DNA of 64,000 nucleotides from Escherichia phage vB_Eco_mar003J3: the sequence record NC_048203.1; one strand, given 5' to 3'. Position numbers and translations under genes: made by a program. Positions 1-33,260 of the stretch are shown here, one piece after another (the first letter of the stretch is position 1; the number at the start of each line of letters is the position of its first letter). Below the pieces are notes generated by a model. It searched no databases, was not told the DNA's origin, and was given only the letters and a program-made list of their open reading frames with translations.

Positions 1-191
1 ACCTGAGAAAATAGTATTGAGGGTTGATGTATCTGGTGTAGTAGAGCAGTGGGATGAAGAGGGATTTATCGCACTTTGCACTGAATCTCAGGATCCTATG
101 CTTAAAGCTATGCTAGCAGTGTATAACTTAGGTATTATTGCAGGTAGTAGATAATAATAAACCCCAGTGGATTATCCACTGGGGTTTTCTT

Positions 192-2417
192 TTACTTAGA
201 ACTTCTTAGTGCATTAAGTTCTCTCTGCATATATTCTAACTGTTCCTTATAGTCCACTATTTGTTTTTGTAGTTCCTGTACAACTGTGATAATATCAGCC
301 ATAACAGCCTTATCATTTACGTTTAGAATCTCAAATTCTTTTCCATTATCATCTACAGACTGACCCCCACTAAAAACATAAATAGGGTCAATAGCTTCCA
401 TCTGCTGTGCTAAATACCCACGCTGGGGAACTACATTTCCTTTATATGTGAATTCTACAATCCCTATTTGTTCAATTCGTTCCCACGCACCCGATTTCGG
501 CAATTTAAAATTGTCTTTGATACGAACATCAGAACCTTGAATAGCAACTTGCCCTAAAGGAGTATGCATTGTGCTGTCCGCTCGCATAGAATACCAGAGA
601 TTTATATTATCAGATCTTGTTAATTGCCATGTATATTGTGCGACTCCATCTACAGTATAAATGTAGTTGGCTACCGTACAGTCAGAGTTTTCAAGATGGG
701 ATAACTTGTTATGTCTAACACCGTCTAACGACTCTTGGCTTTTTAGCTTTACAATTGTAGCAGTGTATGCGTCAGAATTCCCAAAAAGTGCTCGAGCTAC
801 AAGGTTTGATTGTGTTTCTAATCCATTCTGTGGTAGTAAAGTCCCTGGTATATAAAGGTGTCCATTAGAATTAAAACGCATTACTGCTGTATTTGTTCCA
901 TGTGCTTCAACCCTTGCTTCGGTAATTCCATTTCCAATTGCTGCTTGTGCGTAGAAATCTGCACTAAAGTTATCGGTAGCTCCTACTTTATACTTTGAAC
1001 TAACTCTGCCACCACTTACTACAGTATTCACTGGGGGTAATACTGCATCGGCATTGTTAACACTCCAAGAAGTATTTGCCGCAACAAAACCACCAGATGC
1101 ACGAATAACCCAAACACCAACAAAACTACGTGGCAATATGTTGTTTTTTATTGAATATTTTCCATAGACTCCATCACTGGCCCCAGCGTTAATTGTTAAT
1201 ACTGCGTTGTTTCTTACTCTGCTAAAAGTACCATCATTAGGTAAAAATGTATCTTCAACTGCAGAATTATATCCGAAAGCTCCGCTTACAGCTTTAGGTG
1301 CTGGTTGCCAAACTTTTCCGCTTGTATCGTTTGCTGCCGTACCATAAATATTAGGTGCTGCCGCTTCATAGACACGCCCATCTTCGGAAGAATTACCACC
1401 ATCACCACGCCCAAAAAGACTTAACGTAGAATTTGGTTGCGCACCGTTCCGGTCAGGCACACGGAATGTAGTAGATCCGTTACCCGTTGAATACCTACCT
1501 CGTTTTTCTGGGTCAGCAAGCCATTCAGCATCGGAAATAGGCTATAACATTTGAGCGTATGCCCACAATTCAGGCCAGTCTGCGCGATTTAGCAATTGAC
1601 CATCTGATAAGACTTCATATGGTTGAATATACGCACGACTATCACGAAGATGGAAATCACCAACGCCATAGTTCATTACACCATTCATTGTCGGGCCGAC
1701 AGTGCCTGTATTTACAAGGTTTTGCACCCAACGTTTCGTCGCTGCATCATAATCGTTAACTGGATCACCAGACAGTGGGGTAGGACCTTGGGGCCTAACA
1801 ACAGACCATAAAGCTTCCCTATTGGTTACTCCTGTACCTCCCTGTTCAACAGATAATGATATCCACTTGTTTTCTACGTCACTATACGCACCCCAAGCAC
1901 CTGAATTCTGAATAGTTAACCTTGAGCTTTTATCTCCACTATACACTCGAGTTTCTGTTCCAAATTCCTGGCTAAATCTATCAAGTTCTAGTGCAGTTTT
2001 AGCCCCATCTACAGTAGAAGAACCAGTACCACCCTGAGCAATAGTAATAGCTTTGGTAAGTGAATTTAGTTCTGTAATATCGTTATTAGCACCCTTACCT
2101 GCTTTAGTATCTAGGCCAGTATTAATACTCTCAATGGATGTGTTAATACCACCCAAGGCAGAATTAATACCACCAATAGACTCGTTAATGCTACTAACAG
2201 ACTCATTAGTATTGTTAATAGAAGTATCAATTCCACTTAGACGAGTGTTTAATTCTTGCTGATCTATATTATACTTAGAGATTTGTAAGTATTTAGAAGT
2301 TAATACAACAGCACCAGCCTCTCCATCAACAGAGAAAACACCAGCAACAGCAGCATCTCTGTTAACTACAATATATGGCGCCATTGCGCCAGATTTAGGC
2401 ATTAAATTACGTGACAT
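192..2417 (-). CDS. L-shaped tail fibre protein, distal paralogue (LtfB-like); about 741 codons interrupted by one in-frame TAG at 1542..1544
   Basis: ORFs 1542..2417 and 192..1460 share a frame (1544-1460=84); the 27 codons between them are open; C-terminal chaperone-like segment AVMADIITVVQELQ; motif STGNGSTTFRVPD spans the stop and matches STGNGTTTFRLPD in 2816..5458. Confidence 0.7.
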
Positions 2418-2815
2418 AAGATTTCCTAATAAGATTAGAATTACTCCCTAATCTCTTGTAAACTTTTAGAGTAAAGTGCGAGTCCCTTCGCACAATAGGT
2501 TATTATGGAGTATTTTTTATTTTACTCACTTCTGTTTCAAGTGTGGACACACAGTTAACTAAAGCTAGAGCTTGATTTACTTCCGTAAGAAGTTTCTTAA
2601 GAGTAGTAATCCCTCCCTTTAAGCTATCAATTTCTTTTGCTTACTGGTCATTTTCATCCCTTAGCTGAAGAAGAGCTTCATGGTGTAGTACTCTGTCTTT
2701 TCATCGAACATGATGTTGTCCGCATATTGCCGAGTTTGATCGGACTGTATACTCACAACATCCGCGCGGATGTAAAAACCTGCAACAGCATGGTTTAGGA
2801 GGAATCCAAATGGTG

Positions 2816-5458
2816 TTACTTTTGTAACATCAGATTAACTAGTTCTTTAAGCTCTGCGACTTCTGACTTCAGCGTTTCGATTTCCGTATTCTTTCTCTGT
2901 AACTCCTGAACGACGGTTACTACATCCGCCATGACCGCGCGGTCATTTACGTTCATTATCTCAAATTCATTACCGTCATCACCAAGAGCGGTCCCCCCAA
3001 AGTAAGTATAGGTATCGTCGATATCAGCCATTTGCTGTGCAAGAAAACCGCGCTGACGGATTTTACTTCCGTTATAGTAAAATTCCATGACACCTATTTT
3101 AGCAATCCTTTCCGCTGCGCCATCCCTTGCAGGAGCAAAGCTATTCTTAATGCGGATATCAGATCCTTGGATGGCGACGCGCCCTTCAGGGGTGTACATC
3201 CCGTTATCTGCTCGGATCGAAAAATATTTAATATCAAGACCTGTTACGTCCATCCTTGTTACAAACTGTTGTTGTGAACCTCCTGGAGATACAAGATAGT
3301 GATATATTTTTGTTGTGTTATTTTCGACTTGGCTCAGATAGTTGACGTTATCCGCGTCCGTCGACGATCTATCCGCTTTTTTTATGACCGCCGGGCCGAA
3401 AGCGCCATCACGGCCCGAAAATACGCGCCCCCGGGCTTCACTCTCACATGACATATTGCCATCAGAGTCTATCGCCAAAATAGCCTGTTTAAGTACGCCA
3501 CCGATTCTGGATACTGCTGATATGCGAGTCACCACCACTGACGACCCTTTCGTCGCAGCCACGGACATCGACGCATCGGCGATATTAACGCCGTTTTCGG
3601 ATAGTCGGCTAGTCAGCCACCCGCCCGCCGTAGCCCCCGCAGGTAGAACAGTCTCCTTATGTACGACCTGCAACGTGTCCTGGATATTAGGGTTAGTCAC
3701 CTTTTCCAGAACCCAGCCACGCGTCGCGGCATCCATCTCGCTAACTGGATCTGCTGCTAATGGCGTGGCACCTACTGGGCGGACGTTAAGCCAAGCAGCG
3801 GCGCGGTCTGCGAGATCGCTCAAGTTATTTGCTTTCTTGAGTACATCTGAAGAAGCTGGAACTTCTAGGGCAGTTCTAGCCTCTTCTACTGTAGAAGCTC
3901 CGGTACCACCTTTATTTATCGGGATAATATCTTCTACAGAGGCTTCTCCAAGTCCTAAAGCTGATCTTGCAGTCTCAATAGTAGAAGCTCCGGTACCACC
4001 TTTATTTATTGGGATAATATCTTCTACAGAGGCTTCTCCAAGTCCTAAAGCTGATCTTGCAGTCTCAATAGTAGAAGCACCAGTACCTCCTTTAGCTACA
4101 GGTAAAATTCCCTCAAAACTATCTGTAGAAATGGCAATATTAACAGAACCATCTGCAGAAGGTCCAATCCCATTAACCATAGTAATATACGGAATTTGTT
4201 CCTTAATAGCACCAGCGTTTTCCTCGCCTTTTGCAGCAGCACGGAATGCTTGACCCTGCATCATATCAGGTAGACGGAAAGTAGTAGTACCATTACCAGT
4301 GGAGAAATAGAGAGTTGCACCAGCTTGCCATTGTTCCTCAGTAACCGAAGGGATTAAGCCAGCTTCAATAGCTTCCCAAGTATCTGGGTAGTCTACACGT
4401 AGAACCTCACGACCATCAGCAGGAAGAACACCAGGGTACCCAACGCCTGAATCCTTATCATAAGGGAACCAAGTAACTTCACCTAACCACAGAGAAGGAT
4501 TACCACCAGGAAGAGTAATCTGTATGTTACCTACATCATCTGCACGAACGTTATTAATAGAAACTATCTTTTGCTCTGCCTCTACTAACTCTAATTCTGG
4601 AGTCTCAGCAGTTCCAGCTACTTTGTACCACCCATATTTTGAGTCAGTTTGGTTCCATACTAGGATCTTTTCACCTAGTGCGCGACTACTAACGTCAGTA
4701 TCTGCTTCTTCTTTGGTCTTGTAGACTTTGATAAAGCCAGATATATCTTCTTTATCCAGTTTGCTATCTACAATCTGAGTAGCACGATCTGCCTCAGCTT
4801 TAGCACGATCTGCCTCAGTAGTAGCATCGATAGCTTTATCGCCAGCTTCAGTAGCAGAACCAGCAGCATTAGTTTCAGAAATCTTAGCGTTTAGTTCTGA
4901 TTGCTTAGCAGCAGCAGCATGCTCACCAGCAGTTGTTGCAGCAGCATCGGCTCCTTCTTTAGCAGTTTCTGCACCAGTTTGTGCAGTTTCAGCGGCTACT
5001 TGAGCTTGTTGAGCAGCAGTTTTAGCTTGTTCGGCTAGTTCTCTACTTCTTTCAGCATTTTGAGCAGCTAACTGAGCCGCATCTTTGTGTGTGCCGGCTT
5101 CTGTAGCAGATGCAGCGGATTCTTCAGCGCTAGCCTTAGATAATCCAGCTTGTCTCTCAGATTCCGTAGCAGAAGTAGCTGCTTGAGTAGCAGAAGCTTC
5201 AGAAGAATCAGCGTAAATAGCAGCTCTATTTTCTGAGTCTCTAGCGTTAGTTTCAGATAATTTTGCTGCAATTTCAGAATCTTTTGCAGCAGCAGCTGAA
5301 GCTGCGGATGATTCCACAGCCGCAGTCAGTTCACCCGCAGTAATAGAACTGATAGAGTTACCTAAAACTACTGTATATTTAGGATACTTACTAGCAGTAG
5401 TTGTAGTATCATCTATGTTCAGAATCTGCTGTACAATAATTTTAGTTTTAAGTGCCAT
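2816..5458 (-). CDS. L-shaped tail fibre protein, proximal paralogue (pb1/LtfA-like) with C-terminal intramolecular chaperone domain
   Basis: 880 aa; N-terminus [11 protein letters not shown]...SKYPKYTVVLGNSISSITA and Ala/Gln/Glu-rich coiled region; C-terminus AVMADVVTVVQELQ typical of autoproteolytic chaperone domain; directly downstream of p132-like gene. Confidence 0.75.
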   Translation of the reverse strand: MALKTKIIVQQILNIDDTTTTASKYPKYTVVLGNSISSITAGELTAAVESSAASAAAAKDSEIAAKLSETNARDSENRAAIYADSSEASATQAATSATESERQAGLSKASAEESAASATEAGTHKDAAQLAAQNAERSRELAEQAKTAAQQAQVAAETAQTGAETAKEGADAAATTAGEHAAAAKQSELNAKISETNAAGSATEAGDKAIDATTEADRAKAEADRATQIVDSKLDKEDISGFIKVYKTKEEADTDVSSRALGEKILVWNQTDSKYGWYKVAGTAETPELELVEAEQKIVSINNVRADDVGNIQITLPGGNPSLWLGEVTWFPYDKDSGVGYPGVLPADGREVLRVDYPDTWEAIEAGLIPSVTEEQWQAGATLYFSTGNGTTTFRLPDMMQGQAFRAAAKGEENAGAIKEQIPYITMVNGIGPSADGSVNIAISTDSFEGILPVAKGGTGASTIETARSALGLGEASVEDIIPINKGGTGASTIETARSALGLGEASVEDIIPINKGGTGASTVEEARTALEVPASSDVLKKANNLSDLADRAAAWLNVRPVGATPLAADPVSEMDAATRGWVLEKVTNPNIQDTLQVVHKETVLPAGATAGGWLTSRLSENGVNIADASMSVAATKGSSVVVTRISAVSRIGGVLKQAILAIDSDGNMSCESEARGRVFSGRDGAFGPAVIKKADRSSTDADNVNYLSQVENNTTKIYHYLVSPGGSQQQFVTRMDVTGLDIKYFSIRADNGMYTPEGRVAIQGSDIRIKNSFAPARDGAAERIAKIGVMEFYYNGSKIRQRGFLAQQMADIDDTYTYFGGTALGDDGNEFEIMNVNDRAVMADVVTVVQELQRKNTEIETLKSEVAELKELVNLMLQK
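3891..4070. repeat. tandem 90-bp repeat, 2 copies with 1 mismatch, inside tail fibre gene
   Basis: 3891..3980 and 3981..4070 identical except c/t at 3920 vs 4010; encodes repeated IETARSALGLGEASVEDIIPINKGGTGAST. Confidence 0.9.
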
Positions 5459-5880
5459 TATTGAGTTACTCCATCGCTGATGTATACTTTACCTTCCATA
5501 ATACGGAAAGAACTGACTTCAGAGCCAATTACATCACGAGTCATTAGGATATCATAATAACCAGCAAAACGTTGTCTTGGGTTATACTTATCACGTTCTT
5601 TAGATGCTTTTTCACCAATATTAGTAACGTCTGCAACGGAAAGACTAATTGCAGCAGCACCTTGAGCAGCATCAATAACACGAGTTTTAAAGTTAGCTAG
5701 AACCTCGGCGTTCTCATCTAAACTAGACTTAATAGTTCCTCGGAGTGAATATCCGGTTAAGTTAACAGGAACTTCTGTTGGTGGATATACACTGTCATCA
5801 ACATCCATAAACTGCATGATAAGACCATAAGGTACTTTCTCATCAACAACAATATCAATAACTCGGTTTTCTGTACTCAT
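5458..5880 (-). CDS. tail collar protein (T5 p132-like)
   Basis: 140 aa, same size as T5 p132, located between pb4-like and tail fibre genes. Confidence 0.6.
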
Positions 5881-5885
5881 TATAA

Positions 5886-7943
5886 TTACCTTATATGGAT
5901 ATACCCACTATTTAGGTCTATCTTCATCTTGTAGTATGCTTCAGGGTTCCCTGATAACGCAGCATTTCTATCGTAGATTATATTAACACCGATTTGTGAT
6001 AAGAAGGCATTTCCTGCCACAATCTTATCCGCAGTAACAGTTCCATTAACAATCATATTGCCATGAAGAACCATTGCAGGGTTAATCCATCCAGCTCCGT
6101 TCCACTGACGGGTAAATGCTGTTTGTGGAGCATTACTGTTAAATTGTGTTAGAACATCGTATTTAACCGGAGGTTTTCCAAAGTTATTTTGAAAGAATGC
6201 GTTAGCTTGTCCATCATCCCAACCGCCTAATCCAGGAATACCCATGGAGTACATCCCAGGACCACGCTGTCCATCATGTCCTATAGTACCTTCAGTACCA
6301 CTCCATTGAACTACATCAGACCAGCTAGTACCTTCAAGAAGTTTGTTAGTAACTGGATCAAGTGTACCTGTAGTCGCATAGATATTTTGTGTCATATCTG
6401 TACGGTTAGGTGGAGTTTTTGACCAACCAGGAGGTGGATAATCTTGTTCTAGCGGTTTGGCCGGTAAAGATGTTGCTAACTTATAAACAAATACTGTTTG
6501 CTTACCTTGTAAACCAGTTCCAATATCTACGTCACCATTTGGTGTTCCAATCACTACACCACTAGAAATACGCAGAGTAGTACCATCATAACGTATCCAT
6601 TGTGTAGCATTACCAATGTCTAACTTAGCTTTGGCAGAGGTATTATCCATACCCATCCAAATACCAGAGTTATTATCCCCCCAGGATTTACCTTGAGTGT
6701 AAATTGCTGGGTTATCTTTACCAGACAAGTTAGTCATGATAAAGTTCGCAGCATTAATATCTCTAGTAATTACTTTACCATCAACGTTAACAACACGGTT
6801 TATAGGGTCAAAAGAAATAGGTGCTTTACCTTCTTCATCTAGCAGACCAATGTTAATAGCACCAGTAGCTGCATCAATTAGGAATGTTTGTCTCCAGATT
6901 TCCCCATCTTTCATGCTGCCTTTAATAAAGGCATAGTTAACATCAATACCCGTCTCATTGACAAAACTATTATCTAGAGGAGTATCTTCATTCAGAATAA
7001 ACGTTACAGGAGCTGACTCTGTTATATCTTGTTTACTTGGTCCCCAGGCAATTGATGATACCTTAAAAGTATGTTCAACTTTCCATGGGAATGATATAAT
7101 TGTTGCAGCTCTGGCAGCACCCACGTTTATCTTTTGAGCTTTAGCCCATCCGGTTTTAGCATATTCCTCGGAGTTTATGTAAGTAACCAAGAATTCACGA
7201 ACGTTAGCACCAGCACCACGTTCCCAGTCCCACTCAATTCTAACATCATATCGTTCTTTACCATCAGCAATTCGTGCAGCTTTAAAAACAATATCGATAG
7301 GTGCAGTAGGAGGAACAAAATTATAAGCTACAGTTAGAATATTAGTGAACTCATAGTACCCAGAAGAATCAACTGTAACACCATCAGGCATAGTTACTTG
7401 ACCAGATATTCTGATCTTATAATCTCCGATAGGAACTCCACCAAATTTAATAGTAGAACCTAAAGCCCCAATATAATATTTAGTCCATGGACTGTCTTCA
7501 GTGGCTGTACTTTTTAACTCAATAGTACAGTAGCTTGCTTCACCAGTTGTTTCCACAACAACTATTGGTGCGCCCACCCCAACATCCACAGGTTCTGACT
7601 CAGATCTTGCTGCAACAATTATTGGCTTCTCTTTTGTTTTAAAGTTAGTTTCATTAGAGAGGTTAATACCAATTTTTGCATTTAAAAGTTCTGAGTCAAT
7701 AATTGAGTCATAAAAAGCTCCCTGAACCTGATAGGTAGTTGAGGGAGTTAAGTTATTGATCATAACAAAGAAAGTGTCGATTCCAGTGAAATCTCTTCTA
7801 TCCACTTCTTCGCCAAGTTTAAGCCAGAATGATCTACCGATAACATCGTAGTCGGTATAGATAGAATGCTGGATATACGCCATAGTATATCCAGTCATAA
7901 TACTATTTAAGACCATCTTGGCTGGTGCATTATTCGAAATCAT
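5886..7943 (-). CDS. baseplate / central fibre protein (T5 pb4-like)
   Basis: 685 aa (T5 pb4 about 688 aa), synteny after hub protein. Confidence 0.65.
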
Positions 7944-19728: not shown

Positions 19729-20240
19729 TACACTCTCCTATAGACTTCGATGATTGTACGAATATGTTCTGGAATACCAGACTTAGTATTGTTAAACGTA
19801 ACTGTCTCACCACCAATAGTCTTGGCTTGACGATAATCTTGCTTATGCCAGTGATCTACTAACAGACATGCTGCCAGTTTAAGATCTTCAGGCATTGGAT
19901 TGAAACCACCTTGAGTATACTCTACATCCATATATCCTTCAGGAGGATTAAACTTAAGGAGGATAACACCATCAGGATACAGTTTAAACTGTTCCGTATC
20001 TATTTCATTCTCGTTAATAGTCATCTTTGTAATAGATGTGGCTGAAGGAGAACTCAGGAAATATTTCCTACGGCTAGGTTTTGTGGTGATTAATTGATCT
20101 ACCGCATCTGCATCATCCATACCTAGAAGGCTTGTAATCAGCGTATTGGCAGCTTTAATCATCATCTCAACCTGAGTTTCCATATCAGGACGTTTTAAAT
20201 TCCCATATAGTTTATAATCTTCAACAGTGATGATTTGCAT
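19728..20240 (-). CDS. head completion / adaptor protein (putative)
   Basis: 170 aa, first gene after major capsid terminator. Confidence 0.4.
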   Translation of the reverse strand: MQIITVEDYKLYGNLKRPDMETQVEMMIKAANTLITSLLGMDDADAVDQLITTKPSRRKYFLSSPSATSITKMTINENEIDTEQFKLYPDGVILLKFNPPEGYMDVEYTQGGFNPMPEDLKLAACLLVDHWHKQDYRQAKTIGGETVTFNNTKSGIPEHIRTIIEVYRRV

Positions 20241-20250
20241 TTATTTTTCC

Positions 20251-20278
20251 CAATAAAAAAGGAGAGCCGAAGCTCTCC
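20251..20278 (-). terminator. rho-independent terminator after major capsid gene
   Basis: ggagagc-cgaa-gctctcc followed on coding strand by TTTTTTATTG; same 25-bp flank as 15218..15242. Confidence 0.6.
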
Positions 20279-20299
20279 TTATCGGCTGAAAAGCCTGTA

Positions 20300-21676
20300 T
20301 TAAGATGCAGCGTAAGCACCAGATACAACGCCGTTTTCGAAGTAACGTTGCAGGTTAACACGCTGAGTAACGTAGTATGCGTCACGCTGTTTGCCAGCTT
20401 GGCGCTCACGTTCAACAGTAACAGCACGCTGACGCGGCATTACGAAGTTATCTTTATAAACAATAACTGCGAATTCTGCAGAAGCAGCTTTAGCTGGGAA
20501 GTACTCAGAAACTACAACCGGCAGACCGTAAATACGACCAACCTGACCCTGCAGTTTAACAGCATCGTTACCAACCTGGGCAACATCCTGCCATTCTTCA
20601 TCTTCCAGCAGATCGTAGTAAGCATCCATAGATACGATCAGTACCAGTTTGCTCAGTTTCAGACCATGACGGCCCAGTTTACGACGCAGCTTGGAGATAG
20701 TCTTAGCAGTTACCAGAACAGAACCGTCAGCTTTAGCTTCGGTAACAACCTTAGCACCATCATCAGCAGCCAGTTTCAGCAGACCCTTAGGCTGACCAGT
20801 ACCATTACCAGACATGAAAGCTTCTTCGATAGAAACAGCGTGTGCTTCGATCAGACGCTTACGCAGCAGAGGCAGCAGGGAGAAGATTGCATCTTCTTCA
20901 GTTTCATCAGTGATGAAGGACTTAGCAGCCAGCTTGTAAGTTTTGAAGCTGATTTCAGTCAGTTGACCTTTAACTTCGTCACCAACAGTTTCGTCAGTAC
21001 CGAATTTGGAAGCATCTACCCAAGTAGCACGACCAGCTTCTGGTTCAACGAGCATTGTAAGGATTTTGCTGGACATTGGCAGTTCATCGAACAGTGCACC
21101 AACTACCAGTTCCTTCTGCAGGTCACGGATAATACGGGTAGAGAAGATAGTTTCGTATGCTTCGCTAGACATGGAAACGGAAGAAGAACCGTTAACAGCT
21201 TTAACGTGAGCCTTACCATGTTCAGTTTCGAATACGTCTTTCTCCATCATATAAGACAGAAGAACCAGTTTCTCAACTTCATCTTCGAAAGCATCCTGAG
21301 TGCCATAAAGAGCTTTAGCTACGCTATCACCAACGAAGGAACGACCTTCACGAGCTGCCAACAGAGACTTGATTTCGTCCTGAAGACCAACGATGGTTTC
21401 CTGCTGCTTTTCTACAGTCTGTGCGAACAGTTCTGCGCTCTTCTTAGACTTCTCGTCCAGGTTCTTAACCAGATCCAGAGCTTCTTCCAGACGCTTACGG
21501 TCTTCACCAACAGCTTTAGATACTAGGTCATTCATACGAGACAGTTCTTTTTCTTCCTGCTCTTCACGCAGACGCTTAGCTTCCGCAGCTTTCTGAGCAG
21601 CAGTCAGACCTTCCAGAGATTTAGCCAGATCACCCAGACCAAGTTCTTCCTTCAGCTTATTAATATCAATAGTCAT
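20300..21676 (-). CDS. major capsid protein precursor with N-terminal scaffolding domain (T5 pb8-like)
   Basis: 458 aa, same as T5 pb8 precursor; N-terminal about 150 aa charged coiled-coil; follows prohead protease. Confidence 0.85.
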   Translation of the reverse strand: MTIDINKLKEELGLGDLAKSLEGLTAAQKAAEAKRLREEQEEKELSRMNDLVSKAVGEDRKRLEEALDLVKNLDEKSKKSAELFAQTVEKQQETIVGLQDEIKSLLAAREGRSFVGDSVAKALYGTQDAFEDEVEKLVLLSYMMEKDVFETEHGKAHVKAVNGSSSVSMSSEAYETIFSTRIIRDLQKELVVGALFDELPMSSKILTMLVEPEAGRATWVDASKFGTDETVGDEVKGQLTEISFKTYKLAAKSFITDETEEDAIFSLLPLLRKRLIEAHAVSIEEAFMSGNGTGQPKGLLKLAADDGAKVVTEAKADGSVLVTAKTISKLRRKLGRHGLKLSKLVLIVSMDAYYDLLEDEEWQDVAQVGNDAVKLQGQVGRIYGLPVVVSEYFPAKAASAEFAVIVYKDNFVMPRQRAVTVERERQAGKQRDAYYVTQRVNLQRYFENGVVSGAYAAS

Positions 21677-21693
21677 TTTTAAATAATTCTCCG

Positions 21694-22326
21694 TTATTCT
21701 TTAACGTAGCCTAAAGCTATCGCAAGTTTTTCTAGTTCAGAAAGATTACGTTCTTGAGCTGGGACAGCCTTAGAACTTGTTGCAGTAAAAGATTTGCGCC
21801 ATTCAGTGTAATCGTGACCATTCATACTCTTAGCGAGGTTGAACGTTGAGTCCTGATTACAAGGTACAGAGACTACCGAAACTTCGTATAGTTCTAAATC
21901 TTTAATAATAAATATGTCAGTAGCTTCATCCCATTCTGCGTCTAGGCAGCGGAATCCGATACTGAATGTTTTCAGTACACCGTTTTTAATTAGTGAGAAG
22001 ATAGCTGGATCAGAACTTTCATAAATCTCGCATTCAATTTCGAGACCCATTTCAGTAGGGTTAAGATCAATACACTTGCCGATTGGACGACGATGGTCGT
22101 GGCCGAAAAGAATAATCGGGTTTTTCATGTAGTTAACAAGTGCATTAGACGTTTTCCATGCCGAAGCAGGAATTACGTCACCAGCGCGATCTTTACTAAT
22201 TGTATTAGCGAATCCACGGATTTTTATAACACCCTCTTTGGATTCGCTATCAATAGACTTAATGTAAGCGTCTAAATGAACCGGTGCTGATTTTAACTTG
22301 TTATAGTCAATAGCAGCATTTGTCAT
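21694..22326 (-). CDS. prohead protease (T5 pb11-like)
   Basis: 210 aa, between decoration and capsid genes. Confidence 0.7.
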   Translation of the reverse strand: MTNAAIDYNKLKSAPVHLDAYIKSIDSESKEGVIKIRGFANTISKDRAGDVIPASAWKTSNALVNYMKNPIILFGHDHRRPIGKCIDLNPTEMGLEIECEIYESSDPAIFSLIKNGVLKTFSIGFRCLDAEWDEATDIFIIKDLELYEVSVVSVPCNQDSTFNLAKSMNGHDYTEWRKSFTATSSKAVPAQERNLSELEKLAIALGYVKE

Positions 22327-22329
22327 TTA

Positions 22330-22812
22330 TTAAGCCTCCGGCGCAGGGTTGATAGTTGTTACACACTCATTAGAAGTAATGGAAGTAGATTTACTATCCG
22401 TTACAACAACTTTGTAAGTACCAGCATCTTCTGCAGCAGCTGTAGCTTTGTTGAAATTAGGGCCAGTAACACCACTTAGTGGAGAACCGTCTTTAGTCCA
22501 AGCATAAGTATATGGTGCAGTACCACCAGTAACTGTTACACCCAGATTAATTGCTGCACCAGTATCAACAGCTAGAGTTTTAGCCAGATTCTTTGTGAAA
22601 GCTAGTGCCGGAACAACCGGAGCAGTAATTTCGTATGCTTCTTTGAACTTGTTCCAAACCTTGCGGTTGGTATGTGCAGTGGTCATTCCAAACTCTTTAC
22701 GTAGAGTAGCGTAGTTTGGAACGAACTTGTGTGCTGCAACCGTAGCAAAGAAGATATGAGATTCTGGCAGCTTTTCACCAAAAATGGCCTTTAGACCAGC
22801 ATAATCAATCAT
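22330..22812 (-). CDS. capsid decoration protein with Ig-like domain (T5 pb10-like)
   Basis: 160 aa; C-terminal TVTGGTAPYTYAWTKDGSPL...GTYKVVVTD Ig-like signature. Confidence 0.65.
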   Translation of the reverse strand: MIDYAGLKAIFGEKLPESHIFFATVAAHKFVPNYATLRKEFGMTTAHTNRKVWNKFKEAYEITAPVVPALAFTKNLAKTLAVDTGAAINLGVTVTGGTAPYTYAWTKDGSPLSGVTGPNFNKATAAAEDAGTYKVVVTDSKSTSITSNECVTTINPAPEA

Positions 22813-24026
22813 TCTTTATCCCCATCGGCAGTGCCTTGCGGTCTACCACCTTCTTGACCAGATACACCTGTTGCAGAACCAGCAATGTTAGCAGGAATAC
22901 GAATCTTATTCATCTGCTCATCATCTAAAGGTTCAAGGTTAAGCTCTTCACGAGCTTCGTTACCAGTCATGATACCGTTATTAACCAAAGAGGTTAAATG
23001 TTTAGCCTCAGCTTCTTTATCTGGCGTCAGTGCAGCCACTTCCTTAGTATTAGGAGTAACCTTGTAGCCAAAGAAGAAAGTAAGAGAACTAGTCAGCTTG
23101 TTCAGCATGGGAATGATAGTCATGTAATAGAACAATTCGATGTTTGGTCGAATGTTAGCATTATTACCACCATCAAGTAACACTTGCGGAACACCAAAGG
23201 CAAGACAGATGGATTTATTAAATCCTTCGATATCTTCCTTGAAGTCTAGATCTTTAAAAGAGGATATTTGGGAGTACGGTTTTGCTTTCATACCACCATC
23301 TAGAATCAGGACAGTAGACTGACCCGTACTAGGATTATAATCGAGTTGTAATTCTTCTTGTTTACGCTCACGCAATTTCTTGTTCAGGATTTCATCCGTC
23401 TCAAGAATAAGACCAATCACAGTGCCGTTATCGAGGAACTTCTCTTTAAAGTTAAGCATTTTAGAACGCTTCTCAAGAGAGTCAATAACTGTAGCAACAC
23501 GAGATTGTCCAGAAATTTGGGAGTTTGTGCCACACACGTAACTGTTATCCTTTATAAAGATAATCTCATCTACGCGATAGTCTATCTGGTTATTAAATAT
23601 GAATTTTTTGATAAACTTATTGGCATCTGCCTCTACTTGCATTAGTGCAGCAGGGACATGGTAAAGTGCTGTGCCATCCCAATAGATGTATGCACAACCC
23701 TCAAAAAGTAGATCAGTGACTACAAGTCTACGGAATGTGCTTATATCCATGAATGGATTAGGTCGTACATTTAAGAGAGTGTCTAGAGTCTTTGCCTTGA
23801 CGCCGTTAGCGTACGTGACAATATTATATTTATCTCCGACAGTATAAGAACACTCCGCCGCACTATCGATAACCATGTTAGCAGTTCGGTTGAGAATCTC
23901 AATCTTACTGTAGGCTTGTCCAGTGGTAAATGGCTTACGGTTAGTGCGATGACTAACTGGTTCCATGTCTCTTATAATACGTTGACCCGGATTTAGCTTT
24001 TCAGTAATCCAGCTTTTTAAACCCAT
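22809..24026 (-). CDS. portal protein (T5 pb7-like)
   Basis: 405 aa, upstream of protease, downstream of terminase. Confidence 0.75.
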   Translation of the reverse strand: MGLKSWITEKLNPGQRIIRDMEPVSHRTNRKPFTTGQAYSKIEILNRTANMVIDSAAECSYTVGDKYNIVTYANGVKAKTLDTLLNVRPNPFMDISTFRRLVVTDLLFEGCAYIYWDGTALYHVPAALMQVEADANKFIKKFIFNNQIDYRVDEIIFIKDNSYVCGTNSQISGQSRVATVIDSLEKRSKMLNFKEKFLDNGTVIGLILETDEILNKKLRERKQEELQLDYNPSTGQSTVLILDGGMKAKPYSQISSFKDLDFKEDIEGFNKSICLAFGVPQVLLDGGNNANIRPNIELFYYMTIIPMLNKLTSSLTFFFGYKVTPNTKEVAALTPDKEAEAKHLTSLVNNGIMTGNEAREELNLEPLDDEQMNKIRIPANIAGSATGVSGQEGGRPQGTADGDKE

Positions 24027-24550
24027 TATAAGAACCTTGCGAATCCTGATTTAGTTTCAGTCTTGACTTGTGTCTTTTCTTGAGGATTCTGTAGCTTTTC
24101 CTTTTGTTTAAGAACCCATACCTTCTGCTTATTAGCAGAGAAAAGGGGTGGTTCTTTAGTGTACACCTTATGTAATAGTTGGTGATGGTGGACACAAAGG
24201 GTAACAGTGTCATCTACTAGCTCATGCCTATATCTTTCATAGAATGCCGTCCTATTTGAGAGGACTATTTCTTCGTCAGTGAAATCCAATTGGAGTTCTT
24301 TAGCAAATTTTTTAACTAGTAGAGACACTGTATGGTAATGATGAAGTTCTAATTCTTCACCACAACCACAGATTTCGCAGCGATCGGCTTTTTTATATTG
24401 ACTTTTTATACCGTCTCGCATGAGTGATATAGCATCACGTTTATATTTTACATTTCCTGCCACAGTATTCTCCTCAACTGTATGAATATAGTATACATAA
24501 TCATGTCGAATTTGTAAAGGGGATTTTAAAATGCAGGAATGGGATACCAA
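24026..24550 (-). CDS. HNH endonuclease
   Basis: CEICGCGEELELHHYH ... CVHHHQLLH zinc-binding HNH motifs; between large terminase and portal. Confidence 0.7.
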   Translation of the reverse strand: MVSHSCILKSPLQIRHDYVYYIHTVEENTVAGNVKYKRDAISLMRDGIKSQYKKADRCEICGCGEELELHHYHTVSLLVKKFAKELQLDFTDEEIVLSNRTAFYERYRHELVDDTVTLCVHHHQLLHKVYTKEPPLFSANKQKVWVLKQKEKLQNPQEKTQVKTETKSGFARFL

Positions 24551-24577
24551 CTGAGTAGTATCCTATCCTATACTTAT

Positions 24578-25894
24578 TTATTTCCCACGGGAAATTGAGT
24601 AAATTCCATAACGCAGTGCGTCACAAAGGTGAGAGTTCGCATCATGACGTGGTTTTTCACGTGATAATTTCTCTTCACCTTCCTGGAAGTCCCACTTGTA
24701 GTTCGCTAAGGCGTGGATCAATGAGGTACATGAAGCATCTACGATGATCTTACCTTGCTGGAACAGTGCTTGCAGGCATGCCAAACCATCTAGGACGGAT
24801 TTCTTAGCAGGAGCAGAAGCGATTTCATGTTCATAAGCTAAGTCCTGACGGAACTGAGCAGCGGCGGAGTCTACAAATATACGATCAACATTATAACGAT
24901 CTATGCAGTGCTGGATATAAGCAGCGTGTTGGGCTGTAGTCTTTTCAGCCTGCTGATACTCTTCTAGTATGTAATAAACATCAGTATCATAGTGATACTT
25001 GATAGTAAGAACTGCTGTAGGGTCACGATAACCAACGTCGATACCAAGTAATGTTTCGAAAGCCTCATCATCTTTAAAGAAGTGACGCATACCTTTGAGG
25101 TCTTTAACGTGCTCGATAGCATTGAAGGTATCAAAGATCTGACCTTCGAATACGGAGAAGTCAGCCTCATATTCTTGACGGAAATAGTTTTTACTAACAG
25201 TACGACGCGCTTCTTCGATATCGTTCAGGTCAGCACGTGGGTTATCACGATATGTACCATGAATAGATACCCAATTAGGTAGCGTTTCGTTAAATCCTTT
25301 CTCATAGAACTCTTTGAACCAGTTACCCCCACGAGGAGTAGAGATAAATAGAGCTTTAGAGTTTGGCTTATCTAGGGTAGGACGTAACTGAATATCGAAA
25401 GCTGCACCACCAACGTCGGAAATCGCTGCTTCGTCAAAAATGATGAAGTCATATGAACGACCAACCGCGGAGTCAGCCTGCGCCGCGGAAGCCAGTTTAA
25501 AGAGTGAACCATTCGCTAATTCAATCTCTTTATCTTTGGCGTTCTCACGTTCAGTCTGTAATCCATACTTTTTAATAAGACCACGAATCTGTGACCAACC
25601 AATGTTAGCCAGTGAGTAGTTAGGTGCAACTACTAGCACCTTCACATTGGGTTCCAGAAGTTTTAAGAACCCAAGTGTATATGCGATGAACGACTTACCT
25701 ACACGACGTGATACACATGCAGTTACGAAACGGTGTCTAGGATCTTCCAGCGCGTTAATAATTGCAACCTGAGGGGCGTTAGGCGTAATCCCCTCTTGAG
25801 CTAGAATGCTAGAGACTGGCAGACGGAAAAATCGTTTGTCAATACCAAAGTCAATAACATCTGTGGTGTTAATATAATCTCTAGAGACCTTCAT
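24578..25894 (-). CDS. terminase large subunit
   Basis: 438 aa (T5 large terminase 438 aa); Walker A-like VSRRVGKS; C-terminal acidic nuclease-like segment. Confidence 0.8.
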   Translation of the reverse strand: MKVSRDYINTTDVIDFGIDKRFFRLPVSSILAQEGITPNAPQVAIINALEDPRHRFVTACVSRRVGKSFIAYTLGFLKLLEPNVKVLVVAPNYSLANIGWSQIRGLIKKYGLQTERENAKDKEIELANGSLFKLASAAQADSAVGRSYDFIIFDEAAISDVGGAAFDIQLRPTLDKPNSKALFISTPRGGNWFKEFYEKGFNETLPNWVSIHGTYRDNPRADLNDIEEARRTVSKNYFRQEYEADFSVFEGQIFDTFNAIEHVKDLKGMRHFFKDDEAFETLLGIDVGYRDPTAVLTIKYHYDTDVYYILEEYQQAEKTTAQHAAYIQHCIDRYNVDRIFVDSAAAQFRQDLAYEHEIASAPAKKSVLDGLACLQALFQQGKIIVDASCTSLIHALANYKWDFQEGEEKLSREKPRHDANSHLCDALRYGIYSISRGK

Positions 25895-26376
25895 TATCTC
25901 TTACCTCCTCCTGCTAGAGCGGTAATAAGATTCATATAGTTTTCGTCACCACTTCCAGCAATAATATTATTCTGAATGTTAGTCTGGTTAGCCGGAGTAC
26001 GGGCTGCTGCCTTCACTTTCTCCAGTTCTACCATCATTTTCATTTCTTCCATCTTCATCTTATGCGCCTTCCAGAGAATATCCATGATATCCTGGTCAGA
26101 ACCCATGCCAGTTTCTTCGAGTTCTTCCAACTTGCGCTTGATAACTTCATCAAGAACTCCGAATAAGCGGTCACGATTACGGAAGCCACTTTCCATAAAG
26201 ATATCGTTGAGATAGTTTTTAACTTCCCCACGATTCATTATATCACGGAATACAATCTCGGACATTCCAAGACTACGAGCGGCGGCAGGAACATCACTAC
26301 CGCACTGTAAATAGGCTTCAATAACATCCATGCCCTCAGGAGACATGAGATCGGGAACTAATACATCATTTGCCAT
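25894..26376 (-). CDS. putative terminase small subunit / DNA-binding protein
   Basis: 160 aa immediately upstream of large terminase, start overlapping. Confidence 0.4.
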
Positions 26377-26386
26377 ATATCCTCCT

Positions 26387-28168
26387 TTAGGTTAGGCGTT
26401 GAACTGTTACACGTAGTCTTGGCAAGAAAACAGCCGCCGCTTCCGCAGCGTGAATGATAACACCCAATTCAACGTTGCCATTACCAAGGTTTTTAATAGT
26501 ATAAATATATCCGTTCCTACGGAAAGCAAACTCATCAGGCCTACTAGCCCAAGTTTGTGTATAACTATAGGAAGTTGTACTGTGATAAGGTACTAGATAT
26601 CCAGGTGGCAGAGTAAGAATCTGGTGGAATACACCATCACCAGCAGTATAACTTTGTTGCCGTCTACCTTGTACCTGCCAAGCACTACCTCCGTAAGTAC
26701 GCACAGGCATTCCAGCAGTATTAAGATTACCCATAATAACTTCGGTAGTTAATATAACAGTAGAGTGAGCATTCGGTAATCCCAACCAAACTGTGGCCAA
26801 AGGTGTGTAGAAGTCACCAGCACCAGGGTAGGATGGAGTTATATCGTCCCCTACATAAGTACTTGCAACGTTGCCTGGGAATAACCTGAGTGGTACAGTA
26901 CTAGGACTCCACACAGGTCCATGTTCATTACCAATGGAGTTGGTATTAGTATCTACATACCATTGTTTACCTACACCAAATTTATATAAGCTAATTTGAG
27001 AAGCTGCACCCCCATAGTTAACTGGTGACCACAACCCACCATTACTAGAGCCGATAAATTCACATCGTGCAGTATTATCACCAAAAACTCCGGTATACGC
27101 AGCGTTATTACCAACATACTCCATATCAGGGCGATAGCCTAAGTTTCCGAAAGCATTCTGGTTAATAAATTTATAGCCTGTATTTGGTAGGCTAACACCT
27201 TTAATAGTAAAGTTAGATGGAGATATTAAGATATCTGAACTGGTAAATGGATTACCAGAAACTCCCATACTACCATTAGAATAGCGCAGATTTAGTACAT
27301 ACCAAATAACCTTAGTTGGCGTAACGTTGTACCAGTCCTGTACATATACCTTTCTAGTGGCTTGTGCAGCCATATTAGTTGTAGAACCCCTACAAACGTA
27401 TACTTTAGTAGGAAAGGAGGGGGATTGGTAGTTAATGTTTACGTTATCTGGTAGTACGCCTTTTTTACCTGCGAAGCCACGAATATTAGAACTACAAACA
27501 TAAAACCAATCATGGCCTCTACCAGCAGAACCAATAGGCGCCTGCCAGTTAGGATCCCAATAATCTGCGTTACCACCATCTAAAGGAACAGTAGAGACAC
27601 CAGTTGGAAAACCCATAAGACTCCAGGCTCTGGCAATGGCTTCACCAGCAGAAACACCACCAGGTCTAAAGATCTGGAAACCAGAGGACTGTAGTAAACT
27701 GCCTCCAGAACCTTGCCTAGCAATAGATTCCTCATGACCAAGACCACCATTATAGATATAAGTACCATGAGCTAAACTATCACCGATCGCAAAAGCAGAT
27801 GTTACAGATAATTCAGCACCAGCACGTGGTGGGTCTTCAAAGAATGATAAGAACTGGCCAACCTGAGATTGAGTACCATTCAGAAATCCACGATGAGTAC
27901 CGTTTATCTCAATAGCAGTTAATATAACTCTACCCGGATCATTGGATTTAATATTTATAATATCCCAAGGCATCTGAGTAACAAAGTATCCATTACCTGC
28001 ATTACCTAGGGCTGCTTCATAAGTCCCATCAACCAGGACGAAAGGCATATCTGAGTGGAAGATACTATTAGTATTTGGAGAATAGTGCTCACCAGTATCA
28101 CCACCATTAGCAGCGTTTAGAGATAATACAGTTTTACCATCACTAAATTTTCCTGCGAAAAAACTCAT
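26387..28168 (-). CDS. receptor-binding tail protein (T5 pb5-like)
   Basis: 593 aa starting MSFFAGK; adjacent divergent lipoprotein gene as in T5 oad/llp. Confidence 0.55.
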
Positions 28169-28251
28169 ACAATCTCCTTCTTTAAAAATGTATTTGCTTA
28201 GGTCCCTCTATTTTGCTATAATATATTTATAAATTAAACAGAGGAACGATT

Positions 28252-28518
28252 ATGAAAAAGTTACTAGCTATCGTAGTTGCAGCAGTAGTGTTGACTGGTT
28301 GTGTACCAGCTCCCGAGCCGTTCTGTAAGGCATACGTGAAGTCTTATGGTCATGTTGGTGAAGAACACTATGCTTTAGATATTCGAGAAGCACGTACTGT
28401 GGGCTACCGATTCCCTAAAACTCAGTTACGCACTAAGTTTGGGTGGTGGGATCTGTCACAGTTTGATCTCAAATATGGCGATTGCAAATTTAAACTAGAA
28501 CAATCTGGTCACTTGTAA
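28252..28518 (+). CDS. llp: lipoprotein, superinfection-exclusion Llp-like
   Basis: 88 aa with signal peptide and lipobox LTGC; divergent from receptor-binding protein gene. Confidence 0.55.
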   Translation: MKKLLAIVVAAVVLTGCVPAPEPFCKAYVKSYGHVGEEHYALDIREARTVGYRFPKTQLRTKFGWWDLSQFDLKYGDCKFKLEQSGHL

Positions 28519-29288
28519 TTAGTATAAAGTAAAAAGATCTCGAAGTAAACAAAAATTTTTATTTCTGGGATGAGGTACAGGTAGCAAACACAATGCAAGA
28601 TGAAGAAAAGCCCTTTCAGGAACCTGTTAACTTTGAAATAGATCCCAGGACTAAAGCAATACATGATGCGATTAACGAAATCATTCAAGACGTCATAGAA
28701 GATACAATATAAGACGTGATGGGAACATCCTTCTTACTAGAAGAATCCGGCTTCGACGAAGTAATGGATCTAATCGGGACAGTCGTAATGGTTCGTGCAA
28801 TTGCTAGGGTATTCCAAATACCAAGACTATAGGAGAAGCAAAGAGATGTCAGACGACAACAGAAGAAAGAACAGACGCGGGGAAGTGTACGAAAGTTGGA
28901 TAAATAGTTTCGGATTCGGAACTGTATTATTCTTTATCTTTGTACTCTTTTGGTTAGCGGCTATGGCGGGGTGGTTATAATGGAAGTAATAATTATTGCT
29001 TTACTAGTTGTGGTAATTATCGGGCAGTGCATTTTAGATAACCACTTAACTCGTATCGAACGTAAGCTGCGGGGAGACAAGTAATGTTTAGTTTTGTAGC
29101 TATCTTCATTATTGGGGTACTTGCGGGAATCTTCGGAACACTCGGGGCGATTAATAAGCATCGTGAATATATTGTGGGAGTATCGCGGGAGCTTTCGGAA
29201 AGGGAGCGGAGGTTTGCAGAAAAACGGGAGGAGTTCGAGCGAGAGTGGAGTGCTGGCTCAAGAAGCTCTCGTAGGAGATTTAAGATAG

Positions 29289-29786: not shown

Positions 29787-29959
29787 TAGCGCTAATTTGA
29801 AAATCTTGAAATTTCATAAGATTACACATGCGGATGTGCTCAGTGGGACTGGAGATAGTTAGTAGTCTAATAATCCCCCTGTGTTACTATTACCATGCTA
29901 ACTGTTTCATCCTGTAACCATTTTTTAATTACAGGATGAAACTATTTTATTTTTAATTG

Positions 29960-33221: not shown

Positions 33222-33260
33222 AGGGAAATTATAGCGGGGAATATTCCCCGCTGATTAAAT

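What the first reader, a model, noticed from the sequence alone, without database searches (positions are those of the whole stretch)
192..2417. Single in-frame amber (TAG) codon inside an otherwise intact distal tail fibre gene
The two track ORFs 1542..2417 (291 aa) and 192..1460 (422 aa) are in the same frame. I translated the 27 codons between them by hand and they are open (PISDAEWLADPEKRGRYSTGNGSTTFRV), so the only interruption is TAG at 1542..1544. Similarity to the paralogous fibre 2816..5458 runs straight across the stop (DWPELWAYAQML*PISDAEW...STGNGSTTFRVPD versus DYPDTWEAIEAGLIPSVTEEQW...STGNGTTTFRLPD). This is therefore a nonsense codon in a conserved domain, not a gene boundary. 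It could be a laboratory amber mutant grown on a suppressor host, a recent inactivation of the distal fibre, stop-codon readthrough, or a sequencing error. I looked for a CUA-anticodon tRNA in the array and found none among the tRNAs I could fold.
Basis: seen in the sequence. Interest (0 to 1): 0.75.

Follow-up and report, generated by a model that had tools for sequence, protein, structure and literature searches.

The report
Nonsense mutation in phage side-fibre gene
A T5-like coliphage carries one real premature stop codon in the gene for the second branch of its side tail fibres, an ordinary knockout of an accessory gene that the phage does not need on the O-antigen-less lab strain it was isolated on.

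Summary
Window 192..2417 (- strand) is one 741-codon reading frame, broken only by TAG at 1542..1544 (codon 292).

The window is Escherichia phage vB_Eco_mar003J3 (Epseptimavirus). It was isolated and grown on E. coli MG1655.

The gene is the orthologue of ltfB, the branch protein of the two-protein lateral tail fibre of phages DT57C and DT571/2.

- **Relatives are intact.** The closest relatives have an uninterrupted 741-aa gene with Ser (TCG or TCA) at this codon, so the lesion is a single C>A change.
- **The site is conserved.** The stop lies in the most conserved block of the family. In 16 public viral contigs the codon is always Ser or Thr.
- **The change looks recent.** Of 16 differences from the closest relative, 14 are synonymous, and nothing downstream has decayed.
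- **It is not a read error.** Assemblies of two further sequencing runs carry the identical TAG allele.
- **No suppression or recoding.** No CUA-anticodon tRNA exists in the window or in a relative's complete array, and no other gene has an in-frame TAG.

Published engineered ltfB nonsense mutants grow normally on rough lab strains and lose only one O-antigen host.

Verdict: a genuine, recent, probably neutral loss-of-function mutation. It is ordinary, but it corrects the published statement that this phage uses both fibre proteins.

The parts
192..2417 (-). ltfB orthologue, the second (branch) lateral tail fibre protein. It has 741 sense-codon positions plus a TAA stop and is interrupted at codon 292.
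   Evidence: The translation has one internal stop. It is 50% identical over 99% of its length to DT571/2 LtfB, P0016. Synteny is the same: ltfC-ltfA-ltfB next to a convergent dut gene.
1542..1544 (-). In-frame amber codon TAG, codon 292. The mutated base is window 1543: C>A on the coding strand, G>T on the + strand.
   Evidence: The relatives have TCG (26175II) and TCA (YZU-L1), both Ser. In 16 IMG/VR occurrences of the same block the codon is Ser 14 times and Thr twice, never a stop.
1542..2417 (-). The part that can still be translated: a 291-aa N-terminal fragment (GenBank VCU43802.1). It carries the LtfA-docking N-terminus and the shaft repeats.
   Evidence: ORF. An AGGA Shine-Dalgarno-like motif lies at 2424..2427, 6 nt before the ATG. 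The N-terminal 45 aa are 43/45 identical to DT571/2 LtfB. The exact protein is listed under the name of vB_Eco_mar003J3.
192..1541 (-). 449 codons downstream of the stop, no longer translated as part of LtfB. They hold the rest of the conserved block, the variable receptor-binding region and the C-terminal chaperone domain. GenBank annotates 192..1460 as a separate 422-aa CDS from a GTG.
   Evidence: There is no Shine-Dalgarno-like sequence before the GTG at 1460, and no other start codon in the first 100 codons after the TAG. The frame is still open and 9 of its 10 differences from 26175II are synonymous.
1395..1766 (-). Most conserved block of the family (residues about 218-341), with a weak tail-collar-like signature. 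The stop lies in the middle of it.
   Evidence: Invariant columns flank codon 292 in 16 sequences. The block is nearly identical in DT57C LtfA, 8hqz_d. Pfam Collar PF07484 matches only weakly, E=0.039, below its cut-off.
384..533 (-). Peptidase_S74 (intramolecular chaperone of endosialidase) domain, residues 629-678 of the conceptual product. It lies downstream of the stop and is therefore lost.
   Evidence: Pfam PF13884, E=2.8e-7, 31.2 bits against a cut-off of 22.
159..187 (.). Bidirectional intrinsic-terminator-like hairpin, 4 nt after the end of the full 741-codon frame.
   Evidence: Stem of 13 pairs followed by T-rich tails on both strands.
2816..5458 (-). ltfA orthologue, the proximal lateral tail fibre protein. 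It is 880 aa and intact.
   Evidence: 72% identical to DT571/2 LtfA over residues 1-600, which includes the proposed LtfB-docking region 223-471. It was detected in virions by mass spectrometry as MAR003J3_00081.
5458..5880 (-). ltfC / p132 collar protein that anchors LtfA to the tail (140 aa).
   Evidence: ORF. Relatives annotate the syntenic 140-aa gene as 'L-shaped tail fiber protein p132' or ltfC.

Best explanation
This is a genuine, recent, spontaneous nonsense mutation in ltfB of phage vB_Eco_mar003J3: TCG (Ser292) to TAG, one C>A transversion. Translation stops after 291 residues. The receptor-binding part and the C-terminal S74 chaperone domain, which such fibres need in order to trimerise, are not made. 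Virions therefore should carry LtfA-only, unbranched lateral fibres.

The loss is tolerated because the phage was isolated and propagated on E. coli K-12 MG1655. That strain makes no O-antigen and has no amber suppressor (rfb-50, sup0; from my own knowledge of the strain). LtfB-type fibres are needed only to get through particular O-antigens.

Shown here: the stop, its ancestral state, its reproducibility, the absence of any suppressor, and orthology to LtfB. Inferred: absence of full-length protein, neutrality on the rough host, and whether the mutation arose before or after isolation.
For: - **Single-base lesion.** It sits in a gene that is otherwise 99.3% identical to an intact 741-aa gene.
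- **Recent event.** Of 16 nucleotide differences from 26175II, 14 are synonymous, and there is no second stop or frameshift in the 449 downstream codons. The gene was under purifying selection until very recently.
- **Wild-type allele exists.** A protein identical to the window's product except for Ser at 292 is found on a 113-kb contig (P0008).
- **Conserved site.** The codon is Ser or Thr in all 16 IMG/VR occurrences and Ser, Gly or Thr in 15 aligned homologues. None of them ends there.
- **Reproducible.** The same 2226-nt allele with TAG occurs in the Logan assemblies of runs ERR10359908 and ERR10359658. A later mock-virome study re-propagated this phage.
- **Host.** MG1655 was used for isolation and for all characterisation.
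- **Published precedent.** An engineered ltfB Q45-opal mutant of DT571/2 grows normally on laboratory and rough strains and loses only the O81 host HS3-104 (PMC4728585). The lateral fibres are not needed on rough hosts (PMC10713586).
- **Virion proteomics.** LtfA was detected but neither LtfB fragment was.
Against: - No read pile-ups could be inspected. The two extra runs probably come from the same laboratory stock, so they rule out a base-calling or assembly error but not a mutation fixed in the stock.
- The link between the ERR runs and the mock-virome study is inferred from the phage list and the accession range, not shown.
- The virion proteome was shallow (7 proteins), so not detecting LtfB is weak evidence.
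- A cluster member, P0005, has Gln at 292. If it is a real CAG allele, a full-length variant exists somewhere.
- Neutrality on K-12 is argued by analogy with DT571/2, not measured for this phage.
Confidence: 0.85

Rival explanations
1. Sequencing or assembly error: the real phage has a sense codon (TCG) and the TAG is an artefact of the deposited genome.
For: A single-base difference from the closest relative is the kind of change an error could produce. I could not inspect reads.
Against: The identical 2226-nt allele was assembled independently by Logan from two other runs, ERR10359908 and ERR10359658. The original genome was assembled from Illumina reads with SPAdes --careful at up to 100x coverage. 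The change is a substitution, not a homopolymer indel.
Confidence: 0.03
2. Deliberate laboratory amber mutant, or a phage maintained on an amber-suppressor host (supE/supF), so that full-length LtfB is made in practice.
For: TAG is the classical conditional-mutant codon. Engineered amber and opal ltf mutants exist for DT57C and DT571/2.
Against: The phage is an environmental seawater isolate. It was isolated and characterised on MG1655, with no mutagenesis described. MG1655 carries no amber suppressor (my own knowledge of the strain). No other gene in the window has an in-frame TAG.
Confidence: 0.02
3. Programmed readthrough or suppression: the TAG is decoded at useful frequency by a phage tRNA or by sequence context, giving a short and a long product by design.
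For: The phage encodes many tRNAs, including tRNA-Gln(CUG), which is near-cognate for UAG. The base after the stop is C, which may be a weaker termination context (from memory, not tested).
Against: There is no CUA anticodon among the 20 tRNAs in the window. An extra tRNA-like element at 58252..58325 has a TCC anticodon loop. None of the 29 tRNAs of relative 26175II, which include the part of the array beyond the window, has CUA. The stop is not conserved, because all relatives have Ser or Thr. It lies inside a folded conserved block, not at a domain junction. A trimeric fibre would need three readthrough chains.
Confidence: 0.02
4. Natural two-gene arrangement: the 291-aa and 422-aa ORFs, as annotated in GenBank, are separate functional genes.
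For: GenBank and RefSeq annotate two 'tail fiber protein' CDSs, VCU43802.1 and VCU43801.1.
Against: The split falls inside a block that is nearly identical in most of the aligned homologues. No homologue ends or starts there. The downstream GTG has no ribosome-binding site. The closest relatives have one CDS.
Confidence: 0.01
5. Adaptive rather than neutral loss: removing LtfB improves fitness on rough K-12 and was selected during isolation or propagation. This is a sub-case of the best explanation.
For: The nearest relatives, the vB_EcoS-26175 phages, carry a different lesion in the partner gene ltfA: an A7>A8 frameshift in at least 26175II. This hints at repeated loss of lateral-fibre genes. 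DT57C LtfB may fold back onto the tail tip (PMC10713586).
Against: The engineered DT571/2 ltfB knockout showed no change in growth on laboratory strains. The 26175 frameshift is in a homopolymer and could be a sequencing error. Two lesions are too few to show selection.
Confidence: 0.12

Closest known systems
LtfB of the branched lateral tail fibres of T5-like phages DT57C and DT571/2 (Golomidova et al. 2016, PMC4728585; Ayala et al. 2023, PMC10713586)
   Same: Same locus order, ltfC-ltfA-ltfB next to a convergent dut gene. It is 50% identical over its full length to DT571/2 LtfB, and the N-terminal 45 aa are 43/45 identical. It has a C-terminal S74 chaperone domain. The partner LtfA is 72% identical across the proposed docking region.
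   Different: The window copy is interrupted at codon 292. Its distal receptor-binding region (about residues 360-620) is divergent, so its O-antigen specificity is unknown. The host phage is an Epseptimavirus, not a Tequintavirus.
Engineered ltfB Q45-opal and ltfA amber mutants of DT571/2 and DT57C (PMC4728585)
   Same: A nonsense codon in a lateral-fibre gene. The published phenotype is unchanged growth on laboratory and rough strains, with loss of one O-antigen-protected host.
   Different: Those mutants were made deliberately by recombination with mutagenic primers. The window allele is spontaneous, lies at codon 292, and leaves a 291-aa N-terminal fragment that keeps the docking motif.
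Fibre-less T5 variants (dispensability of the L-shaped tail fibres, Saigo 1978; Heller and Braun; recalled from memory, not checked here)
   Same: Loss of lateral fibres is tolerated on K-12, where they only speed up adsorption through O-antigen.
   Different: T5 has a single Ltf (pb1) protein. Here only the second branch is lost and LtfA remains intact and in the virion.
Intact orthologues in vB_EcoS-26175I-V, Citrobacter phage YZU-L1 and unnamed contigs (P0004, P0003, P0007, P0008)
   Same: 98-100% protein identity, the same length of 741 aa, and the same flanking genes.
   Different: They have Ser at codon 292. 26175II instead has a frameshift in ltfA.

Membership tests
LtfB (branch protein of DT57C-type lateral tail fibres) | Gene immediately downstream of ltfC (p132) and ltfA, at the end of the tail module and facing the dut/flap-endonuclease genes | tested here: met
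   The window order is 5458..5880 (p132), 2816..5458 (ltfA), 192..2417 (ltfB). DT571/2 and the close relatives have the same order.
LtfB (branch protein of DT57C-type lateral tail fibres) | Full-length sequence homology to DT57C or DT571/2 LtfB | tested here: met
   P0016 (DT571/2, 767 aa, coordinates of ltfB): E=3.8e-203, 50% identity, 99% coverage.
LtfB (branch protein of DT57C-type lateral tail fibres) | Conserved N-terminal ~45 aa (phiEco32 gp15-like), proposed to dock on LtfA | tested here: met
   43 of 45 residues are identical to DT571/2 LtfB. The feature is defined in PMC4728585.
LtfB (branch protein of DT57C-type lateral tail fibres) | Partner LtfA with a T5-Ltf-like N-terminus and the conserved region 223-471 | tested here: met
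   Window LtfA is 72% identical to DT571/2 LtfA over residues 1-600.
LtfB (branch protein of DT57C-type lateral tail fibres) | C-terminal intramolecular chaperone (Peptidase_S74) domain | tested here: met
   PF13884 at residues 629-678 of the conceptual product. It lies downstream of the stop, so it is encoded but not expressed.
LtfB (branch protein of DT57C-type lateral tail fibres) | Uninterrupted reading frame giving a full-length protein | tested here: not met
   TAG at codon 292. The gene is therefore an inactivated (pseudogenised) member.
LtfB (branch protein of DT57C-type lateral tail fibres) | Binds a specific O-antigen and extends host range | not testable with these tools
   This needs adsorption and plating on O-antigen-bearing strains with a repaired allele. 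The published host range is K-12 derivatives plus a few Klebsiella isolates.
Suppressor-dependent (laboratory amber) mutant | Propagation on an amber-suppressor host | tested here: not met
   The isolation and propagation host is MG1655. That MG1655 is sup0 rests on my own knowledge of the strain.
Suppressor-dependent (laboratory amber) mutant | Suppressor tRNA (CUA anticodon) available from the phage | tested here: not met
   None found by ARAGORN or Rfam in the window. None among the 29 tRNAs of relative 26175II. The part of mar003J3's own array beyond position 64000 could not be read.
Programmed stop-codon readthrough or TAG reassignment | The stop codon is conserved at the site in relatives | tested here: not met
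   Relatives have Ser or Thr, or Ser, Gly or Thr.
Programmed stop-codon readthrough or TAG reassignment | In-frame TAGs in many genes, or avoidance of TAG as a terminator | tested here: not met
   Only one interrupted frame in 64 kb. Three other ORFs of at least 100 aa end in TAG.

The most novel reading that the evidence does not exclude
The amber allele is not a dead end but a selected or conditionally expressed state. Either loss of the LtfB branch is advantageous on O-antigen-less hosts and recurs in this phage group, as the ltfA frameshift in the 26175 phages might suggest. Or rare readthrough or reversion (a possible Gln292 allele, P0005) yields a minority of branched virions, giving a host-range bet-hedging population.
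Probability: 0.05. Interest if true: 0.4.

Novelty: already known. Interest (0 to 1): 0.12.

Why it matters
- **Annotation and interpretation.** The public record lists two 'tail fiber protein' genes where there is one broken gene. The describing paper inferred that this phage uses both LtfA and LtfB and attributed host-range differences to this locus. With ltfB knocked out, the narrow host range of the stock may understate what the wild-type phage can infect.
- **Practical use.** Repairing one base (TAG>TCG) should restore a second receptor-binding branch. This is relevant if the phage is used as a mock-community standard or for host-range work.
- **General caution.** Phages isolated on rough K-12 can carry silent lesions in O-antigen-binding fibres.
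- **No new biology.** The finding does not reveal any new mechanism.

Tried and rejected
- **Suppressor tRNA.** I searched with ARAGORN and with Rfam at a permissive E-value. The one extra tRNA-like element, 58252..58325, has a TCC anticodon loop, not CUA. The full 29-tRNA array of relative 26175II also has none.
- **TAG recoding.** Rejected because only one frame in the window is interrupted and other ORFs end in TAG.
- **Independent expression of the 422-aa ORF.** There is no Shine-Dalgarno-like sequence before the GTG at 1460 and no other start nearby.
- **Tracing the Gln292 protein P0005 and the Ser292 protein P0008 to their contigs.** Looking up LtfA to find neighbouring variants found no record, probably because Logan contigs break inside ltfA, perhaps at its 90-bp tandem repeat. 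P0005 therefore stays ambiguous. It may be a real CAG allele, one step from TAG but two from TCG. Or it may be the same TAG translated by a gene caller using a TAG=Gln code on a short contig. I do not count it as evidence either way.
- **Exact-flank DNA search in IMG/VR.** It found nothing. A degenerate pattern for the conserved peptide found 16 sites.
- **Pfam Collar domain.** The match across the stop is only sub-threshold, E=0.039, so I call the block 'tail-collar-like' and no more.
- **First look-ups that failed.** A look-up of the 291-aa fragment by a DNA reference that included the stop codon failed. Using the protein id worked.

Full report
**What is in the sequence**

On the - strand, window 192..2417 is a single frame of 741 sense-codon positions ending in TAA. 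It has one internal stop, TAG at 1542..1544, which is codon 292.
- The upstream 291-aa ORF starts at an ATG preceded by AGGA.
- The downstream 422-aa ORF, as listed mechanically and as annotated in GenBank, starts at a GTG (1460) with no ribosome-binding site.
- A strong bidirectional terminator-like hairpin (159..187) follows the end of the whole frame.
- A scan of all six frames found only three places in 64 kb where one stop separates two long open stretches. The other two look like normal boundaries between different genes.

**Identity of the window**

The exact 291-aa and 422-aa products are VCU43802.1 and VCU43801.1 of Escherichia phage vB_Eco_mar003J3. This is an Epseptimavirus (T5-like) isolated from seawater, accession LR027389. 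It was isolated and characterised on E. coli MG1655 (PMC6563131). The record itself is not in the phage collection searched. The best hits for this gene are vB_EcoS-26175I-V (99.3%) and Citrobacter phage YZU-L1 (96.8%).

**What the gene is**

The locus order is p132/ltfC (5458..5880), an 880-aa ltfA (2816..5458), this gene, and then a convergent dut/flap-endonuclease block. DT571/2 has the same order, and there the third gene is ltfB.
- The conceptual product is 50% identical over 99% of its length to DT571/2 LtfB.
- It shares 43 of the 45 N-terminal residues that Golomidova et al. proposed as the LtfA-docking element.
- It ends in a Peptidase_S74 intramolecular-chaperone domain, residues 629-678.
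- The partner LtfA is 72% identical to DT571/2 LtfA through residue 600.

So this phage has the DT57C-type two-protein, branched lateral fibre system, and the interrupted gene is the LtfB branch.

**The stop is a mutation, not a boundary**

Both close relatives annotate one 741-aa CDS. Codon 292 is TCG in 26175II and TCA in YZU-L1, so the lesion is one C>A change at window 1543.

The site lies in the most conserved block of the family.
- Invariant residues flank it in a 16-sequence alignment. Position 292 is Ser in most sequences, Gly in three and Thr in one, and no homologue ends there.
- The same block occurs almost unchanged in DT57C LtfA, PDB 8hqz chain d.
- A degenerate DNA pattern for WAYAQML-x-PI found 16 occurrences in IMG/VR contigs. 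The codon was Ser in 14 and Thr in 2, and never a stop.

**How recent it is**

Against 26175II the gene has 16 substitutions, of which 14 are synonymous. The other two are the nonsense change and V480A. The 449 codons after the stop contain no further stop or frameshift. A protein identical to the window's product but with Ser292 exists on a 113-kb contig (P0008). The gene was therefore under purifying selection until very shortly before this genome was sampled.

**Is it an error?**

Logan assemblies of two other runs, ERR10359908 and ERR10359658, contain the complete 2226-nt gene with TAG, identical base for base. The phage was re-propagated and re-sequenced as part of a mock virome (PMC10926689, study PRJEB56639). 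That these runs belong to that study is my inference.

This makes a base-calling or assembly artefact very unlikely. It does not tell whether the mutation arose in nature or in the laboratory stock.

**Is the stop decoded?**

- ARAGORN finds 20 tRNAs in the window and none has a CUA anticodon.
- A permissive Rfam scan adds one aberrant tRNA-like element (58252..58325) whose anticodon loop reads TCC.
- The tRNA array runs past the window end. In relative 26175II the full array has 29 tRNAs and none is a suppressor.
- TAG ends three other ORFs of at least 100 aa, and no other frame is interrupted. The phage uses the standard code.
- MG1655 has no amber suppressor (my own knowledge of the strain).

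Only background readthrough is expected, and a trimeric fibre would need three full-length chains.

**Consequence and why it is tolerated**

The truncated product keeps the docking N-terminus and the shaft repeats. It lacks the rest of the conserved block, the variable receptor-binding region and the S74 chaperone. By analogy with other fibres that carry this domain, no functional LtfB trimer should form; this is an inference.

Two published results fit this.
- An engineered ltfB Q45-opal mutant of DT571/2 grows normally on laboratory strains and rough mutants, and loses only the O81 host HS3-104 (PMC4728585).
- The lateral fibres are described as non-essential on rough hosts (PMC10713586).

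MG1655 lacks O-antigen (rfb-50, from my own knowledge), so nothing selects for LtfB during isolation or propagation.

The published virion proteome of this phage detected LtfA (MAR003J3_00081) but neither LtfB fragment. Only seven proteins were detected overall, so this is weak support. [quoted passage not shown] That inference needs correcting.

**An ambiguous item**

The 90% cluster also holds P0005. This is a 741-aa protein from Logan contigs of at most 3.8 kb, identical to the window product but with Gln at 292.
- CAG is one step from TAG and two steps from TCG, and Gln is never seen at this site in relatives. A real CAG allele would most simply be a pseudo-revertant.
- Equally, a gene caller using a code in which TAG means Gln would produce exactly this protein from the same DNA.

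I could not retrieve the contigs, so I draw no conclusion from it.

**Verdict**

This is a real, recent, single-base nonsense mutation that knocks out the accessory LtfB branch of the lateral tail fibre in a phage kept on a rough K-12 host. The kind of event, and the phenotype of ltfB nonsense mutants, are already known. Its value is as an annotation and interpretation correction for this particular, publicly used phage.

Noticed in passing
L001 (MK907268.1 vB_EcoS-26175II) about 3216, within 1141..3784: In the closest relative the partner gene ltfA is split into 696-aa and 145-aa CDSs by a single A insertion in a homopolymer (A7>A8). The window and YZU-L1 have the intact 880-aa gene. It may be a real second case of lateral-fibre gene loss in this phage group, or a homopolymer sequencing error.
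   Followed up: partly
window 2418..2815 (- strand): The 398-nt gap between ltfA and ltfB contains a stop-riddled remnant. One frame reads ...AKEIDSLKGGITTLKKLLTEVNQALALVNCVSTLETEVSKIKNTP*. It resembles the coiled-coil C-terminal tail of longer LtfA proteins such as that of phage TrudiGerster (P0022). This suggests that the distal part of ltfA was replaced by recombination, leaving the old 3' end behind.
   Followed up: partly
window 3891..4094: There is a 90-bp tandem repeat inside ltfA: 2.3 copies, 96% matches, encoding repeated ...EDIIPINKGGTGASTIETARSALGLGEASV... units. Both Logan contigs end inside ltfA, with only its last 377 codons present, and the full-length LtfA is not on record there. 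The repeat is a likely cause of the break, but I did not map the break point.
   Followed up: partly
window 58252..58325 (- strand): A divergent tRNA-like element was missed by ARAGORN and found only as a weak Rfam match (28.5 bits, to the tRNA-Sec model). It sits where relative 26175II has tRNA-Gly(UCC). Its anticodon loop reads CTTCCAA (TCC), but the rest is only loosely similar to the relative's tRNA. It may be a decayed or unusual tRNA.
   Followed up: partly
window 100..2600 compared with 2400..6000 and 20000..40000: The ltfB segment is 99.3% identical to the vB_EcoS-26175 phages, while the adjacent ltfA/p132 segment is only 95% identical to them. In the structural-gene segment the listed matches are to other phages at about 92-96%, and no match reaches 99%. 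The fibre module looks recently exchanged between otherwise more distant Epseptimaviruses.
   Followed up: partly
window 1395..1766 (- strand); PDB 8hqz chain d residues about 546-690: The ~125-aa block that contains the stop is nearly identical between this LtfB and the LtfA proteins of DT57C and DT571/2. A weaker copy lies in the window's own LtfA (residues 342-398). It looks like a shared cassette junction at which distal receptor-binding parts are swapped among fibre genes.
   Followed up: partly
protein P0005 (Logan; contigs of at most 3777 nt): A 741-aa protein identical to the window's conceptual LtfB but with Gln at codon 292. It is either a CAG pseudo-revertant of the amber allele or the same TAG translated under a TAG=Gln code by a gene caller. 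The source sample could not be looked up.
   Followed up: partly
window 57242..64000: The tRNA array is cut by the window end. There are 20 tRNAs here against 29 in relative 26175II, whose additional Phe, Trp, Glu, Tyr, Leu(UAA), Met and Ser(GCU) genes lie beyond the Cys/Asn pair that is last in the window. No tRNA-Gly(GCC) was called in the window.
   Followed up: no
window 192..1460 (- strand): GenBank and RefSeq annotate the post-stop part as an independent 422-aa 'tail fiber protein' starting at a GTG with no Shine-Dalgarno sequence. This is most likely an automatic-annotation artefact. It should instead be one pseudogene feature spanning 192..2417.
   Followed up: yes
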